DNA of 64,000 nucleotides from the NCBI GenBank assembly GCA_009914755.4, contig CP086569.2, positions 1,952,001 to 2,016,000 of the forward strand, in the 5' to 3' direction. Positions 37,884 to 47,879 of this stretch are shown one piece after another. The stretch comes from the human T2T-CHM13v2.0 reference genome, Homo sapiens. The notes beneath the pieces are model-generated. The model did no database searches. It was not told where the DNA came from and saw only the letters and a program-made list of their open reading frames with translations. How positions within the stretch are numbered: position 1 is the first letter of the stretch; every line of letters begins with the position of its first letter. A program made the translations under genes and the position numbers.

Positions 37884-38785
37884 ATACCCTTCCAGCCAGA
37901 TGAATGCACATGACCACTGGCATGAGAGGAGGTCGGCATTAAGATACAGGTCCTAAGGACCTTGTTGATAAAACAGGTTGTGGTAAAGAAGCTGGCCAAA
38001 CCCCATGCAAACCAAGATGGCGACGAGACTGACCTCTGGTCTTCCTCACTGTTCATTATACGCTAACTCTAATGCATTCGCTGCTAAAAGACACTTCCAT
38101 CAGCCTCATGGCAGTTTACAGATGTCATGGCAATGTCAGGAAGTTACCCTATAGGGTCTAAAAAGGGGAGGAACCCTCAGTTCCCAGAACCGCCCACCGG
38201 CTTCCCAGAAAACTCACGAATAATCTTTCCCTTGTTTCGCACAGAATCAAGAAATAACCATAAAAATCACCAACTGGCAGCCCTCGGTGCTGCTCTGCCA
38301 ATGGAGTGGCCACTCTTTATTCCTTTACTTTCTTAATCAACTTGCTTTCACTTTACTCTATGGACTCACCCCAAATTCTTTCTTGCACAAGATCCAAGAA
38401 CCCTCTCTTGGGGTCAGGATCAAGACCCCTTTCCAGTAAACAACGCCTCATGTTTTCTATAATAATTTCATTACTTTGTGTGCCCACTGACAATGGTAAT
38501 GGTCTAACCCGGGGTTGGTCAACTGCAGCCCTCTAGCAAAATCCAGCCCCTTGCCTATTTTTGTGCACCTTGTAAACCAAAAAACTATTTCCACATCTTT
38601 TAAACAGTGGGTTAAAAAAAATCAAAAGAAGGATAACACAGTTGACTGTTGGACAACATACATCTGAACTGAGCAGATTCACCCATTTGGACTTTCACCC
38701 GAGATGACTCCTCCTCCCTCTTCGTCCCCCCTCCTCCCCCCCTCCCTTCTCCTCCTCCCCTCCCCCTCCTCTCCCTACTCCTGCA

Positions 38786-39080
38786 GAGTGCAGTGACTCA
38801 CGCCTATAATCCCAGCAGTTTGGGAGGCCGAGGCGGGTAGATCACGAGGTCAGGAGTTGAAGACCAGCCTGGCCAATATGGTGAAACCCCGTCTCTACTA
38901 AAAATACAAAAATTAGCCAGGTGTGGTGGCGTGTGCCTGTAATCCCAGTTACTTGGGAGGCTGAGGCAGAAGAAGTGCTTGAACCCAGGAGACGGAGGTT
39001 GCAGTGAGCCGAGATCGTGCCACTGCACTCCAGCCTCGGTGACAGAGTGAGACTCCATCTCAAAAAAAAAAAAAAAAAAA
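38786..39080 (+). mobile_element. Alu (inside Tigger2-like copy A)
   Basis: agtgcagtgactcacgcctataatcccagcagtttgggaggccgagg...gagactccatctcaaaaaaaaaaaaaaaaaaa. Confidence 0.95.
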
Positions 39081-39357
39081 GAGAACGAAGACCTTTATGA
39101 TGATCTACTTCCATTTAGTAAGTAGTAAAATATTTTCTCTTCTCTTCCTTAGCATTTTTTTTCTAGCTGACTTTATAATATACATAACATACAAACTATG
39201 TACTAATCGACTCTATGTTATGAATAAAGCTTCCGGTCAAGAGTACACTACCAGTATTTAACTTTTGGGGGAGTCAGAACCTATACATAGATTTTCAACT
39301 GCATAGAGGTCAGTACCCCTAACCCCCGTGTTGTTCAAGGGTCAGCTGTATATACAT

Positions 39358-39648
39358 ATTTTTTCGAGGTGGAGTTTCCCTCTTGTTGCCCAGGCTGGAG
39401 TGCGATGGCGTGATCTCAGCTCACTGCAATCTCCACCTCCCGAATTCAAGCGATTCTCCTGCCTCAGCGTCATGAGTAGCTGGGATTACAGGCACGCACC
39501 ACCATTCCCAGCTAATTTTTTGTATTTTTAGTAGAGACGGGTTTCACCATGTTGGTCAGGCTGGTCTTGAACTCCCGACCTCAGGTGATCCACCCGCCTC
39601 GGCCTCCCAAAGTGCTGGGATGACAGTTGTGAGCCACTGTGCCCGGCC
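39358..39648 (-). mobile_element. Alu inserted in the 3' TIR of Tigger2-like copy A
   Basis: T-run then cgaggtggagtttccctcttgttgcccaggctgg...gtgagccactgtgcccggcc. TSD gggtca(g/a)ctgtat. Confidence 0.95.
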
Positions 39649-39809
39649 GGGTCAACTGTATTTTGTGCCACGTGATAAATATATACATTTACATCTCAGT
39701 GTCCCTCAAGATTCTTAGAACACAGAACTTGCCCATTCATTTACATATTGCGCTGTTGTGGTAGCGATCATATGACCCAAAGAGCTTCACATATTTCCCT
39801 ATGTGGACT

Positions 39810-40116
39810 TTTCTTTTCTTTTTTTTTTTTTTGAGATGGGATCTTGCTCTGTCACCCAGGCTGGACTGCAGTGGGGTGATCTCAGCTCACTGCAACCTCC
39901 ACCTCCCAGGTTCAAGAGATTCTCCTCCCTCATCCTCCTGAGTAGCTGGGATTACAGACACGCACCACTACACCTGGCTAACTTTTTGTATTTTTAGTGG
40001 AGGCGGGGTTTCGCCATGTTGGCCAGGTTGGTCTCAAACTCTTGACCTCAGGCGATCTGCTGGCTTTGGCCTCCCAATGTACTGGGATTACAGGCGTGAG
40101 CCACCCTGCCCGGCCC
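39810..40116 (-). mobile_element. Alu
   Basis: T-run then gagatgggatcttgctctgtcacccaggctggactgcagtgg...gcgtgagccaccctgcccggcc. Confidence 0.95.
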
Positions 40117-40274
40117 ACTACCCGACCTTGTAAGAAGTTTGTCCACCCCTGCTATGGTCAGAGCTCATAACTGGTACCTTGAAATCTGTCCGGTATGTTC
40201 TCATGCAGAACTTCAAGAGTTATACATTGTGCCAGTAGCGAAAAAAAAAAAAAAAAAAGAAAGAAAAAAAAAAG

Positions 40275-40570
40275 GGGCCAGGCATGGTGACTCACACCTG
40301 TAATCCCAACACTTTGGGAGGCTGAAGTGGGTAGACTATGAGGTCAAGAGTTCAAGACCAGCCTGACTAACATGGTGAAACGCTGTCTCTACTGAAAATA
40401 CAAAAATTAAGCGGGCGTGGTGGCAGGTGCCTGTAATCTCAGCTACTCAGAAGGCTGAGGCAGCAGAATCACATGAACCTGGGAGATGGAGGATGCAGTG
40501 AGCCAAGATCGTGCCACCGCACTCCAGCCTGGGCGACAGAGCAAGACTCTGTCTCAAAAAAAAAAAAAAG
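40275..40570 (+). mobile_element. Alu (unit 1 of tandemly duplicated Alu+flank)
   Basis: ggggccaggcatggtgactcacacctgtaatcccaacac...gaaacgctgtctctactgaaaatac...aatctcagctactcagaaggctgagg... Confidence 0.95.
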
Positions 40571-40649
40571 ATGAAGTTATGAAAATAATAAGTCCAAACA
40601 AATTTTGATTTTTGTCTTTATAGCATTATTCCTGGAGATTAAAAAAAAT

Positions 40650-46589: not shown

Positions 46590-46888
46590 GTTTGGTGTCC
46601 TTTTTTGTTTTTAATTATCTTTCCATAAGTGATTGGGGTACTGGTGGTATTTGGTTACCTAAGTTCTTTAGTGGTGATCTGTGAGATTTTGGTACACCCA
46701 TCACCCGAACAGTATATACTGCACCCTATTTGTAGTGTTTATCCCTCACCCCCCTCCCACTCTTCCCCCCCAAGACCCCAAATTCCATTTTATCATTCTT
46801 ATGCCTTTGTGTCCTCATAGCTTAGCTCCCACGTAACACTGAGAACATACGATGTTGGTTTTTCATCCCTGAGTTACTTCACTTAGAA
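46590..46888 (-). mobile_element. L1 3' end fragment, antisense (inside Tigger2-like copy B)
   Basis: gtgattggggtactggtggtatttggttacctaagttctttagtggtgatctgtgagattttggtacacccatcacccgaacagtatatactgcaccc...tatgcctttgtgtcctcatagcttagctcccacgtaacactgagaacatacgatgttggtttttcatccctgagttacttcacttagaataa. Confidence 0.9.
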
Positions 46889-46902
46889 TAAAAGTTCCTT
46901 AT

Positions 46903-47203
46903 CAGGCGTGGTGGCTCAAGCCTGTAATCTCCACACTTTGGGACGCCAAGGCGGGTAGGTCACCTAAGGTCAGGAGTTCAAGACCAGCCTGACCAACGTG
47001 GTGAAACCCTGTCTCTACTAAAAATACAAAAATTAGCTGGGCGTGGTGGCGTGCACCTTTAGTGCCAGCTACTCGGGAGGCTGAGGCAGGAGAATCACTT
47101 GAACGTGGGAGGCGTAGGCTGTACTGAGCAGAGATCACACCACTGAACTCCAGCCTGACTCCAGGGCAACAGAGTGAAACTCCATCTCAAAAAAAAAAAA
47201 AAA
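46903..47203 (+). mobile_element. Alu
   Basis: atcaggcgtggtggctcaagcctgtaatctccacac...gtgaaactccatctcaaaaaaaaaaaaaaa. TSD aaagttccttat. Confidence 0.95.
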
Positions 47204-47239
47204 GAATGAAAGTTCCTTATGATTTTTGATTCTCAAAGT

Positions 47240-47312
47240 TCCTTATAAGGCGATTCTCCTGCCTCAGCCTCCTGAGTAGCTGGGATTACAGGCGTGCGCC
47301 ACCATGCCCGGC
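47240..47312 (-). mobile_element. Alu internal fragment
   Basis: ggcgattctcctgcctcagcctcctgagtagctgggattacaggcgtgcgccaccatgcccggctaa. Confidence 0.8.
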
Positions 47313-47547
47313 TAAAAAAAAAACAAACAGCATTTTCTTTTCTCTAGCATACTTTAATAATACAGTATACAATACATAAAACATACAAAATATATGTTAA
47401 TCGACTTTATGGTATTGATAAGGCTTCTGCTCAACAATAGGATATTCATAAGTTTTGGGTGAGTCAAAAGTTATCTTTGGATTTTCAACTGTGCCAGGGA
47501 CGTGTGTGGCGCCCCTAACTCCCACATTGTTCAAGGGTCAACTCTAG

Positions 47548-47731
47548 TTTTTTGTTGTTGTTGTTGTTGTTTTTGAGATGGAATCTTGCTCTGTCGCCCA
47601 GGCTGGAGTGCAATGGTGTGATCTTGGCTCCCTGCAATCTCCGCCTCCCAGGTTCAAGCGATTCTCCTGCCTCAGCCTCCTGAGTATCTGGGATTACAGG
47701 CGCCAGCCGCCACACCCAGCTAATTTTTGTA
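47548..47731 (-). mobile_element. Alu (right arm only) inserted in the 3' TIR of Tigger2-like copy B
   Basis: (TTG)n/T-run then gagatggaatcttgctctgtcgcccaggctggagtgcaatggtgtgatcttggctccctgcaatctccgcctccc...cccagctaatttttgtat. TSD caagg(g)tcaact.ta(t)ttt. Confidence 0.9.
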
Positions 47732-47879
47732 TCAAGGTCAACTGTATTTTCTTGCAACAGCCAGAGCTGACTAAGACAGTCTTGAAGCTCAAAGAGGTAC
47801 AAGAACCTACCCAAAGTTATCCAACCAACAAGCACCTGGAAGGCAGAATAAAGACTCAGGCAGCCAAGCGCCATAGCCA

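What the first reader, a model, noticed from the sequence alone, without database searches (positions are those of the whole stretch)
38638..47744. Two Tigger2/MER2-like elements each carry an antisense Alu at the same site in the 3' TIR
Copy A (38638-39672) and copy B (46364-47744) are homologous non-autonomous DNA-transposon remnants with recognisable TIRs (CAGTTrACCCTTrAACAACAC...). Both have a minus-strand Alu inserted at the same nick site just inside the 3' TIR. The TSDs are essentially the same: gggtca.ctgtat in A and caagg(g)tcaact.ta(t)ttt in B. Both Alus share the non-consensus substitution gcaaTctcc (consensus gcaacctcc). The sequences flanking the two elements are unrelated, and their other nested insertions differ. 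Two readings are possible. One is an old duplication or gene-conversion event that copied the Alu-bearing TIR end. The other is a strongly preferred L1-endonuclease nick site (TATTTT|) created by this TIR sequence and hit twice independently.
Basis: seen in the sequence. Interest (0 to 1): 0.55.

Follow-up and report, generated by a model that had tools for sequence, protein, structure and literature searches.

The report
Two independent Alus beside Tigger ends
Two old, unrelated copies of a Tigger-type DNA transposon each acquired its own Alu at a run of four T's that happens to sit just outside the transposon end: an ordinary pair of retrotransposon insertions and a coincidence, not a duplication, and with no evidence for a special hotspot.

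Summary
The anatomy is largely as described. Two ~72%-identical Tigger2-type non-autonomous elements (A 38639-39348, B 46365-47544) are each followed by an antisense Alu. The target-site duplications (TSDs) repeat the end of the 3' terminal inverted repeat (TIR). The 15-nt target AAAATACAGTTGACC (Alu sense) is identical in both, and it is the only non-trivial shared Alu target among 1485 Alu pairs in the window.

The two Alus are separate events.
- A is full length and B is a 5'-truncated right monomer.
- The TSDs are 16 and 20 bp.
- The tails differ, and so does a subfamily-diagnostic block.
- They share 6 non-consensus changes (4 at CpG) against 26 private ones. That is typical: 23% of Alu pairs in the window share at least 6.

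Duplication or gene conversion is therefore rejected.

The nick site is not inside or made by the TIR. The element ends at CAACTG, TA is the transposon's own TSD, and TTTT is unrelated flank. Fifty-seven other ends of the family show this; only 1 of the 50 exact-match ends has TATTTT and none of the 57 has an Alu there. Flanks of this family are T-rich at +1 to +3 after TA, and the window is very Alu-dense. Both make the coincidence less unlikely.

Verdict: ordinary L1-mediated insertions; a hotspot is unproven.

The parts
38639..38712 (+). Copy A, 5' TIR and 5' part of a Tigger2-type non-autonomous element (CAGTTGACTGTTGGACAACAT...)
   Evidence: Aligns to the majority consensus of 47 external copies and to the reverse complement of its own 3' end; sequence.
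38708..38782 (+). CT-rich low-complexity run inside copy A, probably the element's internal CCTCCTC stretch expanded
   Evidence: Tandem Repeats Finder rows and family D1. The matching region in copy B is ccctcctctccgctc.
38783..39080 (+). Sense Alu nested in copy A with an A-rich tail; a private insertion absent from B
   Evidence: BLAST to AluSx: 38790-39068, 90.4% identity.
39081..39348 (+). Copy A, 3' part and 3' TIR; the last base of the TIR (..GGGTCAGCTG) is 39348
   Evidence: 72% identical to copy B's 3' part. Aligns with external same-family copies L015, L048 and L052.
39339..39351 (+). Left TSD copy of Alu A: GGGTCAGCTGTAT (last 10 nt of the TIR, then TA, then T)
   Evidence: 12 of 13 match to 39649-39661, directly abutting the Alu's tail and its 5' end.
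39352..39648 (-). Alu A: full-length AluS of the Sq/Sp-like group. The tail remnant on the + strand is ATACATA + T6 (39352-39364)
   Evidence: 88.3% to AluSx over positions 1-289. Carries GGTCGGGAG, CCTGACCAAC, CCATcGC and the CAACAAGAGgGAAAC block, which 7-8 other Alus in the window also have.
39649..39664 (+). Right TSD copy of Alu A: GGGTCAACTG|TA|TTTT. Inferred first-strand nick after 39664 (TTTT|G)
   Evidence: CAACTGTATTTT at 39653-39664.
46365..46577 (+). Copy B, 5' TIR and 5' part (CAGTTAACCCTTAAACAACAC...)
   Evidence: Alignment to the external consensus, score 105.
46578..46900 (-). L1 3'-end fragment (end of ORF2 plus 3'UTR) nested in copy B; private to B
   Evidence: Translation gives ..SGMKNQHRMFSVLRGS*AMRTQRHKND... 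Identified as L1 from my memory of the L1 sequence, not by a database search.
46903..47203 (+). Sense Alu nested in the L1/copy B, with TSD AGAAT[A/G]AAAGTTCCTTAT
   Evidence: BLAST 46905-47195, 85.2% identity; TSD is family D1.
47325..47544 (+). Copy B, 3' part and 3' TIR; the last base of the TIR (..GGGTCAACTC) is 47544
47531..47550 (+). Left TSD copy of Alu B: TCAAGGGTCAACTC|TA|GTTT
   Evidence: Direct repeat D3; sequence.
47551..47732 (-). Alu B: 5'-truncated right monomer only (AluSx positions 125-287). The tail on the + strand is T-run + (GTT)5 + GTTTTT
   Evidence: 89.6% to AluSx. Has CCATTGC but the Sx-type GGGCGAC-AGAGCAAGA, so it lacks A's diagnostic block.
47732..47750 (+). Right TSD copy of Alu B: TCAAGGTCAACTG|TA|TTTT. 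Inferred first-strand nick after 47750 (TTTT|C)

Best explanation
Two old copies of a ~430-bp Tigger2-type (TcMar-Tigger / 'MER2_type') non-autonomous DNA transposon inserted independently at two TA sites about 8 kb apart. In both cases the flank after the TA duplication happened to read TTTT.

Much later, in a very Alu-dense region, L1 endonuclease nicked the + strand at the end of each T-run (TATTTT|G in A, TATTTT|C in B). An Alu RNA was then reverse-transcribed from each nick by target-primed reverse transcription (TPRT). One event produced a full-length Sq/Sp-like AluS. The other produced a 5'-truncated right monomer of a different AluS lineage.

The second-strand nick fell 16 nt upstream in A and 20 nt upstream in B, inside the TIR. 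Both TSDs therefore duplicate the TIR end and look alike.

The resemblance comes from homologous targets plus a coincidence of flank sequence. The coincidence is made less unlikely by this family's T-rich context just after the TA and by local Alu density.

Shown: the anatomy, the independence of the two Alus, and the flank origin of the T-run. Inferred: the exact nick position (within 3 nt in A) and the order of events.
For: Independence of the two Alus:
- A covers AluSx 1-289 and B covers 125-287, and each has its own TSD abutting its 5' end.
- The TSDs are 16 and 19-20 nt.
- The tails are A6TATGTAT versus A5(CAA)6A6.
- A has the CAACAAGAGnGAAAC block and left-arm markers seen in 7-8 other Alus in the window; B lacks the block.
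- There are 6 shared non-consensus changes (4 at CpG) against 16 + 10 private ones. 22.7% of 1081 Alu pairs in the window share at least 6, and 9% share at least 2 non-CpG changes. Position 244 T is present in 13 of 47 Alus.

Independence of the two transposon copies:
- Their 3' parts are only ~72% identical.
- Their flanks show no similarity.

The T-run is flank, not element:
- 50 unique external ends plus 7 diverged ones all end at CAACTG, usually followed by TA (34 of 50), and then diverge.

Predisposing factors:
- Flank positions +1 to +3 after the dinucleotide are 52%, 48% and 58% T, against 32% background (p = 0.003, 0.015, 0.0002). TTT occurs in 5 of 50 ends.
- The window holds 53 Alu blocks in 64 kb. 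At most ~9% of T4-run ends are occupied (53 against 528 free).
- T-run nick, A-tail, 7-20-nt TSD and 5' truncation are the standard marks of L1-mediated TPRT (established knowledge; model also discussed in PMC2836564).
Against: - A naive prior for the coincidence is small. P(TATTTT flank) is about 1.6% in the window (68 of 4285 TA sites), or up to ~4.6% from the external position frequencies. Multiplied by at most 9% occupancy, that gives 0.15-0.4% per end. Both elements being hit comes to roughly 1e-5 to 1e-4 for a window with two such elements.
- The pair is the only non-trivial shared Alu target in the window.
- Both nick sites (TTTT|G, TTTT|C) are not the optimal TTTT|A.
- The 7-nt ATACATA between the left TSD and the T-run in A is not explained in detail.
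Confidence: 0.76

Rival explanations
1. True site-class hotspot. The combination of a Tigger2-type TIR end, its TA duplication and a T-rich flank is nicked by L1 endonuclease much more often than ordinary T4 runs. One possible reason is that Tc1/mariner-type integration and L1 endonuclease both select similar bendable AT-rich DNA. Under this reading two nearby copies were both hit for a reason, though still independently.
For: - The naive chance estimate is only ~1e-5 to 1e-4 per such window.
- The 15-nt target is identical in both and unique among 1485 pairs.
- Flanks of the family are significantly T-rich at +1 to +3, so nick sites are enriched next to TIRs.
- Position-specific Alu hotspots inside host transposable elements are a documented general phenomenon, some at non-canonical sites (PMC2836564).
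Against: - 0 of 57 other ends have an Alu at the boundary. The only other TATTTT-flanked end (L007) is empty. The sample is small, though, and only ~0.1 hits would be expected.
- The T-run is not part of the element, so any hotspot would exist only in the few percent of copies that landed next to a T-run.
- No known L1 endonuclease determinant lies in the TSD region.
Confidence: 0.17
2. An old duplication or gene conversion copied an Alu-bearing TIR end from one copy to the other.
For: - The same orientation and the same 15-nt target.
- Two shared non-CpG substitutions, at positions 219 and 244.
Against: - Different Alu 5' ends (full length versus truncated at ~125), each abutting its own TSD of different length. 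A later deletion cannot create B's longer TSD.
- Different tails and a different diagnostic 3' block.
- The number of shared changes is typical of random pairs. Position 244 T is a subfamily marker (13 of 47) and 219 A also occurs in a third Alu.
- Adjacent transposon DNA is 72% identical against 83% for the Alus. This fits old independent copies, not a joint copy.
- The flanks are unrelated.
Confidence: 0.03
3. Before either Alu arrived, a short gene-conversion tract between the two transposon copies transferred the TIR end together with TATTTT. This made the two target sites identical, and each was then hit independently.
For: The right-hand TSD copies share a perfect 15-mer, GGTCAACTGTATTTT. 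Its last four bases lie in otherwise unrelated flank.
Against: - A conversion tract needs homology on both sides. The DNA beyond TTTT is unrelated.
- TIR-proximal transposon sequence shows no raised A-B identity.
- Four T's after a T-biased position is a cheap coincidence.
Confidence: 0.03

Closest known systems
Canonical L1-endonuclease / target-primed reverse transcription insertion of Alu (target consensus 5'-TTTT|AA-3' on the nicked strand; TSD 7-20 bp; A-tail; frequent 5' truncation)
   Same: Both insertions have a T4 run ending at the nick, a tail abutting the TSD, and TSDs of 16 and 20 nt. One of them is 5'-truncated.
   Different: The base after the nick is G or C rather than A. In copy A, 7 nt (ATACATA) interrupt the tail/TSD junction.
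Nested transposable-element insertion hotspots (Levy, Schwartz & Ast 2010, PMC2836564): Alus insert at preferred positions along host element consensus sequences; 9814 Alu-in-MER2_type nestings reported
   Same: An Alu lies at the same position relative to two copies of one host family, in the same orientation.
   Different: The nick site here is outside the host consensus, in copy-specific flank. Only 10-14 nt of TIR is split off. Such cases would probably not be scored by methods that need the host annotated on both sides (my inference).
Tigger2-group non-autonomous elements (TcMar-Tigger, formerly 'MER2_type'; Smit & Riggs 1996, recalled from memory because the paper is not held)
   Same: TIR CAGTTGACCCTTGAACAAC..., a TA next to the element end, ~430 bp without nested inserts, and many diverged copies in mammalian DNA.
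   Different: Nothing unusual about the elements themselves. The exact subfamily name could not be assigned.
Tc1/mariner AT-rich target context around the TA (e.g. the Sleeping Beauty ATATATAT-like consensus; from memory)
   Same: External ends of this family show T-rich positions +1 to +3 after the TA.
   Different: Measured here on only 50 ends recovered from metagenome host-contaminant contigs. Not a curated result.

Membership tests
Alu SINE (Alu A, 39352-39648, minus strand) | Dimeric 7SL-derived sequence of ~282 nt plus an A-tail, flanked by a TSD | tested here: met
   88.3% identity to AluSx (consensus written from memory) over positions 1-289. Tail and a 12/13 TSD are present.
Alu SINE (Alu B, 47551-47732, minus strand) | Alu homology, an A-tail and a TSD; a 5' truncation is allowed | tested here: met
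   89.6% identity over AluSx 125-287. Tail is A5(CAA)6A6 in the sense orientation. TSD is family D3.
Same Alu insertion event / copied segment | Identical junctions (5' end, tail, TSD length) and an excess of shared private substitutions | tested here: not met
   All three junction features differ. 6 shared changes against 26 private ones falls within the bulk of the distribution for random pairs in the window.
TcMar-Tigger (Tigger2-type) non-autonomous element | Terminal inverted repeats beginning CAGTTGACCC... | tested here: met
   The 5' end matches the reverse complement of the 3' end, 13/16 in A and 15/17 in B. Both match the consensus of 47 external copies.
TcMar-Tigger (Tigger2-type) non-autonomous element | TA target-site duplication on both sides | tested here: inconclusive
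   The 3' sides read TA in both copies. The 5' sides read CA (A) and TC (B), plausibly mutated. In external copies TA follows the end in 34 of 50.
TcMar-Tigger (Tigger2-type) non-autonomous element | Assignment to a named Repbase/Dfam subfamily (Tigger2, MER44, MER8 and so on) | not testable with these tools
   No Dfam, Repbase or RepeatMasker is available. The Smit & Riggs paper is not held.
L1-endonuclease-dependent TPRT insertion | Nick at the 3' end of a T-run, an A-tail joined to the TSD, and a TSD of 7-20 bp | tested here: met
   TATTTT|G and TATTTT|C; TSDs of 16 and 20 nt.
Insertion hotspot on a host transposable element (sense of PMC2836564) | Recurrent insertion at the same host position in many copies, above expectation | tested here: inconclusive
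   0 of 57 other ends have an Alu at the boundary. Only 1 of the 50 exact-match ends offers a T4 run there, so the test has almost no power.
Segmental duplication of the locus | Similarity extending into the flanks | tested here: not met
   Local alignment scores of 150-nt flanks on both sides equal the shuffle means.

The most novel reading that the evidence does not exclude
Tigger2-type, and perhaps Tc1/mariner-type elements generally, integrate at TA sites followed by a T-rich trinucleotide. Their TIR ends would then be systematically flanked by L1-endonuclease nick sites, and they would act genome-wide as Alu/L1 insertion hotspots. The TSDs of such insertions would duplicate the TIR tip. 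Standard nested-element surveys would probably miss this class, because only ~10-15 nt of the host is split off.
Probability: 0.18. Interest if true: 0.3.

Novelty: already known. Interest (0 to 1): 0.12.

Why it matters
It matters little in itself. It is a worked example of how homologous host repeats make independent retrotransposon insertions look like one copied event, and of how junction anatomy (5' end, tail, TSD length) settles the question faster than counting substitutions.

The only forward-looking point is the small, testable idea in the novel case: that T-rich integration sites of Tigger-type transposons place L1-endonuclease sites right next to TIRs. If that holds genome-wide, it would add a modest footnote to what is known about nested-insertion hotspots.

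Tried and rejected
- **Genome-contig scan** for the TIR 19-mer: 5 hits. The two short contigs I read (L004, L005) are chance matches in bacterial-looking sequence; the other three lie in large bacterial contigs and about four chance hits were expected. No mammalian contamination, so no use.
- **Viral-contig scan**: no hits.
- **Smit & Riggs 1996** (PMC39958) is not held. The supplements of Levy et al. are not held. Neither the published Tigger2 TIR nor per-family hotspot tables could be consulted.
- **Rfam on the whole window**: nothing reached the gathering score.
- **Literature search** turned up 'retro-DNAs' (PMC11195612). I judged from the title and abstract that it does not bear on this anatomy; I did not read it.
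- **TTTT as part of the element consensus**: rejected from the external copies.
- **A short flank similarity** seen by eye (TGCCAC / TGCAAC): rejected by the shuffle test.
- **Alu B as an ancient free right monomer (FRAM)**: considered unlikely, because it is ~90% identical to the AluS right arm.
- **A nick at GTAT|TTTG in A**, with a 13-nt TSD: kept only as a 3-nt uncertainty, because it is not an L1-endonuclease-like site.
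Full report
**What is there**

The window is primate-type DNA and very rich in Alus: 53 Alu blocks covering 14.4 kb of 64 kb.

At the coordinates given there are two copies of one non-autonomous DNA transposon with Tigger2-type terminal inverted repeats (TIRs). They are the only two copies in the window.

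- **Copy A** is 38639-39348. It consists of:
  - a 5' TIR and 5' part (38639-38712);
  - an expanded CT-rich stretch (38708-38782);
  - a private sense Alu (about 38783-39080);
  - the 3' part and 3' TIR (39081-39348).
- **Copy B** is 46365-47544. It consists of:
  - a 5' part (46365-46577);
  - a private antisense L1 3'-end fragment (46578-46900). The translation shows ..KNQHRMFSVLRGS*.., which I recognise from memory as the end of L1 ORF2;
  - a private sense Alu (46903-47203);
  - an odd 66-nt antisense Alu piece (47248-47315);
  - the 3' part and 3' TIR (47325-47544).

Both 5' ends align to a consensus I built from 47 external copies, and to the reverse complement of their own 3' ends. The 3' parts of A and B are only about 72% identical. 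That is expected for two old copies that each diverged about 15% from a common source.

**The two antisense Alus**

Immediately after each 3' TIR lies a minus-strand Alu.

- **Alu A** (39352-39648) is full length: AluSx positions 1-289, 88.3% identity.
- **Alu B** (47551-47732) is only the right monomer: AluSx positions 125-287, 89.6% identity.

The target-site duplications (TSDs) are as follows.

- A: GGGTCA[G/A]CTGTAT at 39339-39351 and 39649-39661, probably extending through TTT to 39664.
- B: TCAAG(G)GTCAACT[C/G]TA[G/T]TTT at 47531-47550 and 47732-47750 (family D3).

Read in the Alu's sense orientation, both targets start AAAATACAGTTGACC. I compared the 5' flanks of all 55 Alus in the window. 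This is one of only two perfect 15/15 matches among 1485 pairs, and the other is two poly-A runs.

**Where the nick is**

That is not what the sequence shows.

A scan of public metagenome contigs for the TIR 20-mer returned 59 short, low-coverage host-derived contigs. These gave 50 unique element ends, and 7 more diverged ends were found within the same loci.

All of them end at CAACTG. The next two bases are TA in 34 of 50 (TG in 7, CA in 4). This is the TA duplication expected for this transposon class. After that the sequences diverge completely. Copies of exactly the same subfamily as A and B (L015, L048, L052) behave the same way.

So on the + strand the target reads: TIR end (..GGGTCAACTG), then the transposon's own TA, then copy-specific flank TTTT. 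The inferred first-strand nick is TATTTT|G in A and TATTTT|C in B. That is 6 nt outside the TIR.

In A, a 7-nt ATACATA lies between the left TSD and the T-run. This leaves a 3-nt ambiguity in the nick position.

Only the second-strand nick falls in the TIR. It is 10 nt in for A and 14 nt in for B. That difference is also why the TSD lengths differ (16 versus 20 nt).

**One event or two**

Every junction feature differs between the two Alus:

- full length versus 5'-truncated, each abutting its own TSD;
- TSD of 16 versus 20 nt;
- tail A6TATGTAT versus A5(CAA)6A6.

Alu A carries GGTCGGGAG, CCTGACCAAC, CCATcGC and the block CAACAAGAGgGAAAC. The same block occurs in 7-8 other Alus in the window, so it marks an empirical subfamily. 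By memory this is the Sq/Sp lineage. Alu B has the Sx-type GGGCGAC-AGAGCAAGA.

Over the 160 shared columns, counted against my from-memory AluSx consensus:

- the two Alus share 6 identical non-consensus changes, 4 of them at CpG sites;
- they have 16 private changes in A and 10 in B.

Among all 1081 pairs of Alus in the window, 22.7% share at least 6 such changes and 9% share at least 2 non-CpG changes.

Of the two shared non-CpG changes, position 244 C>T is present in 13 of 47 Alus and so is a subfamily marker.

A later deletion cannot turn A's arrangement into B's, because B's TSD is longer and directly abuts the truncation point. The transposon DNA next to the Alus is less similar (72%) than the Alus are to each other (83%). 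The flanks beyond the T-run are unrelated (scores equal to the shuffle means).

Duplication or gene conversion of an Alu-bearing end is therefore rejected. These are two independent L1-mediated (target-primed reverse transcription) insertions.

**Chance or hotspot**

- In the window, TA is followed by TTTT in 68 of 4285 cases (1.6%).
- There are 528 free T4-run ends against 53 Alus, so at most about 9% of such sites are occupied.
- Naively, one element end has a T4 run and an Alu there with probability 0.15-0.4%. Both elements being hit comes to about 1e-5 to 1e-4.

Two things soften this estimate.

First, the external ends show that this family's flanks are T-rich at the three positions after the TA. 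T is 52%, 48% and 58% there, against 32% background (p = 0.003, 0.015, 0.0002). TTT occurs in 5 of 50 ends and TTTT in 1 of 50. This resembles the AT-rich palindromic target context known for Tc1/mariner elements (from memory).

Any host family, any position and any window could have produced a comparable 'same site' pair. Position-specific Alu hotspots in host elements are already documented on a large scale, with 9814 Alu-in-MER2_type nestings in PMC2836564.

The direct test has no power. None of the 57 other ends carries an Alu at the boundary. L017 has one 45 nt away. The one other TATTTT-flanked end (L007) is empty. Only about 0.1 hits would be expected in a sample of this size.

My reading is that this is a coincidence helped by a modest predisposition, at about 0.76. 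I leave about 0.17 for a genuine site-class hotspot.

**Comparison with what is known**

Mechanistically this is textbook L1-endonuclease/TPRT insertion: a T-run nick, an A-tail, a 7-20-nt TSD and a 5' truncation. The host elements are ordinary Tigger2-group MITE-like fossils. I could not assign a Repbase or Dfam subfamily name, because no repeat library is available and the Smit & Riggs paper is not held.

Nothing here is a new kind of element or mechanism. The only mildly new idea is that the T-rich integration context of Tigger-type elements may seed L1-endonuclease sites right beside TIRs. If so, surveys that need the host annotated on both sides of the insert would probably overlook this class of nested insertion.

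**Caveats**

- The Alu consensus sequences and subfamily diagnostics were written from memory. The window's own Alus support the consensus states used (position 219 G in 40 of 47; position 244 C in 34 of 47).
- The external copies come from low-coverage metagenome assemblies. Some contigs look chimeric across the repeat: the same flank appears with different upstream sequence in L010, L039 and L057. I therefore de-duplicated by flank and used only flank statistics.
- The probabilities given for chance are order-of-magnitude estimates only.

Noticed in passing
window 41188-42655: A ~1.47-kb purine-rich tandem array (GGGGGA / GGGGAGGAG units, ~160-240 copies, 69-74% matches) lies between the two transposon copies. 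It is a long G-rich low-complexity tract with possible G-quadruplex or H-DNA potential.
   Followed up: no
window 47203-47330: Inside copy B there is a 66-nt antisense Alu piece (47248-47315). It is 95% identical to the consensus, much less diverged than neighbouring Alus. It is followed by A10CAAACA and preceded by a third copy of AAAGTTCCTTAT (47235-47246). That motif is also in the TSD of the adjacent sense Alu (46885-46902 / 47203-47220), and GATTCTC is repeated on both sides. It looks like a small duplication or template-switch rearrangement. It remains unexplained.
   Followed up: partly
window 46578-46900: The antisense L1 3'-end fragment in copy B appears to have TSD TTCyyTATGATTTTT (46563-46577 and about 47213-47227). 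About 20 nt of unassigned sequence (aaaaatttagtttggtgtcc, 46578-46597) lies between the left TSD and the L1 poly-T.
   Followed up: partly
window, whole: Alu density is very high: 53 blocks, 22.6% of the window. There is no Rfam family at gathering score anywhere in the window. Two Alus (36476-36761 minus strand; 40276-40562 plus strand) are inserted into long A-runs, one of which is A33 at 40241-40273.
   Followed up: partly
loci L010, L039, L057 (also L008/L013, L011/L032, L029/L061): Several metagenome contigs share an identical flank but differ upstream of the TIR, or the reverse. This suggests assembly chimeras across the repeat, or orthologous host loci from different species, in host-contaminated metagenomes.
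   Followed up: no
external ends L006-L064, positions +1 to +3 after the TA: The flanks of Tigger2-type ends are significantly T-rich for three bases after the TA duplication (52%, 48% and 58% T against 32% background).
   Followed up: yes
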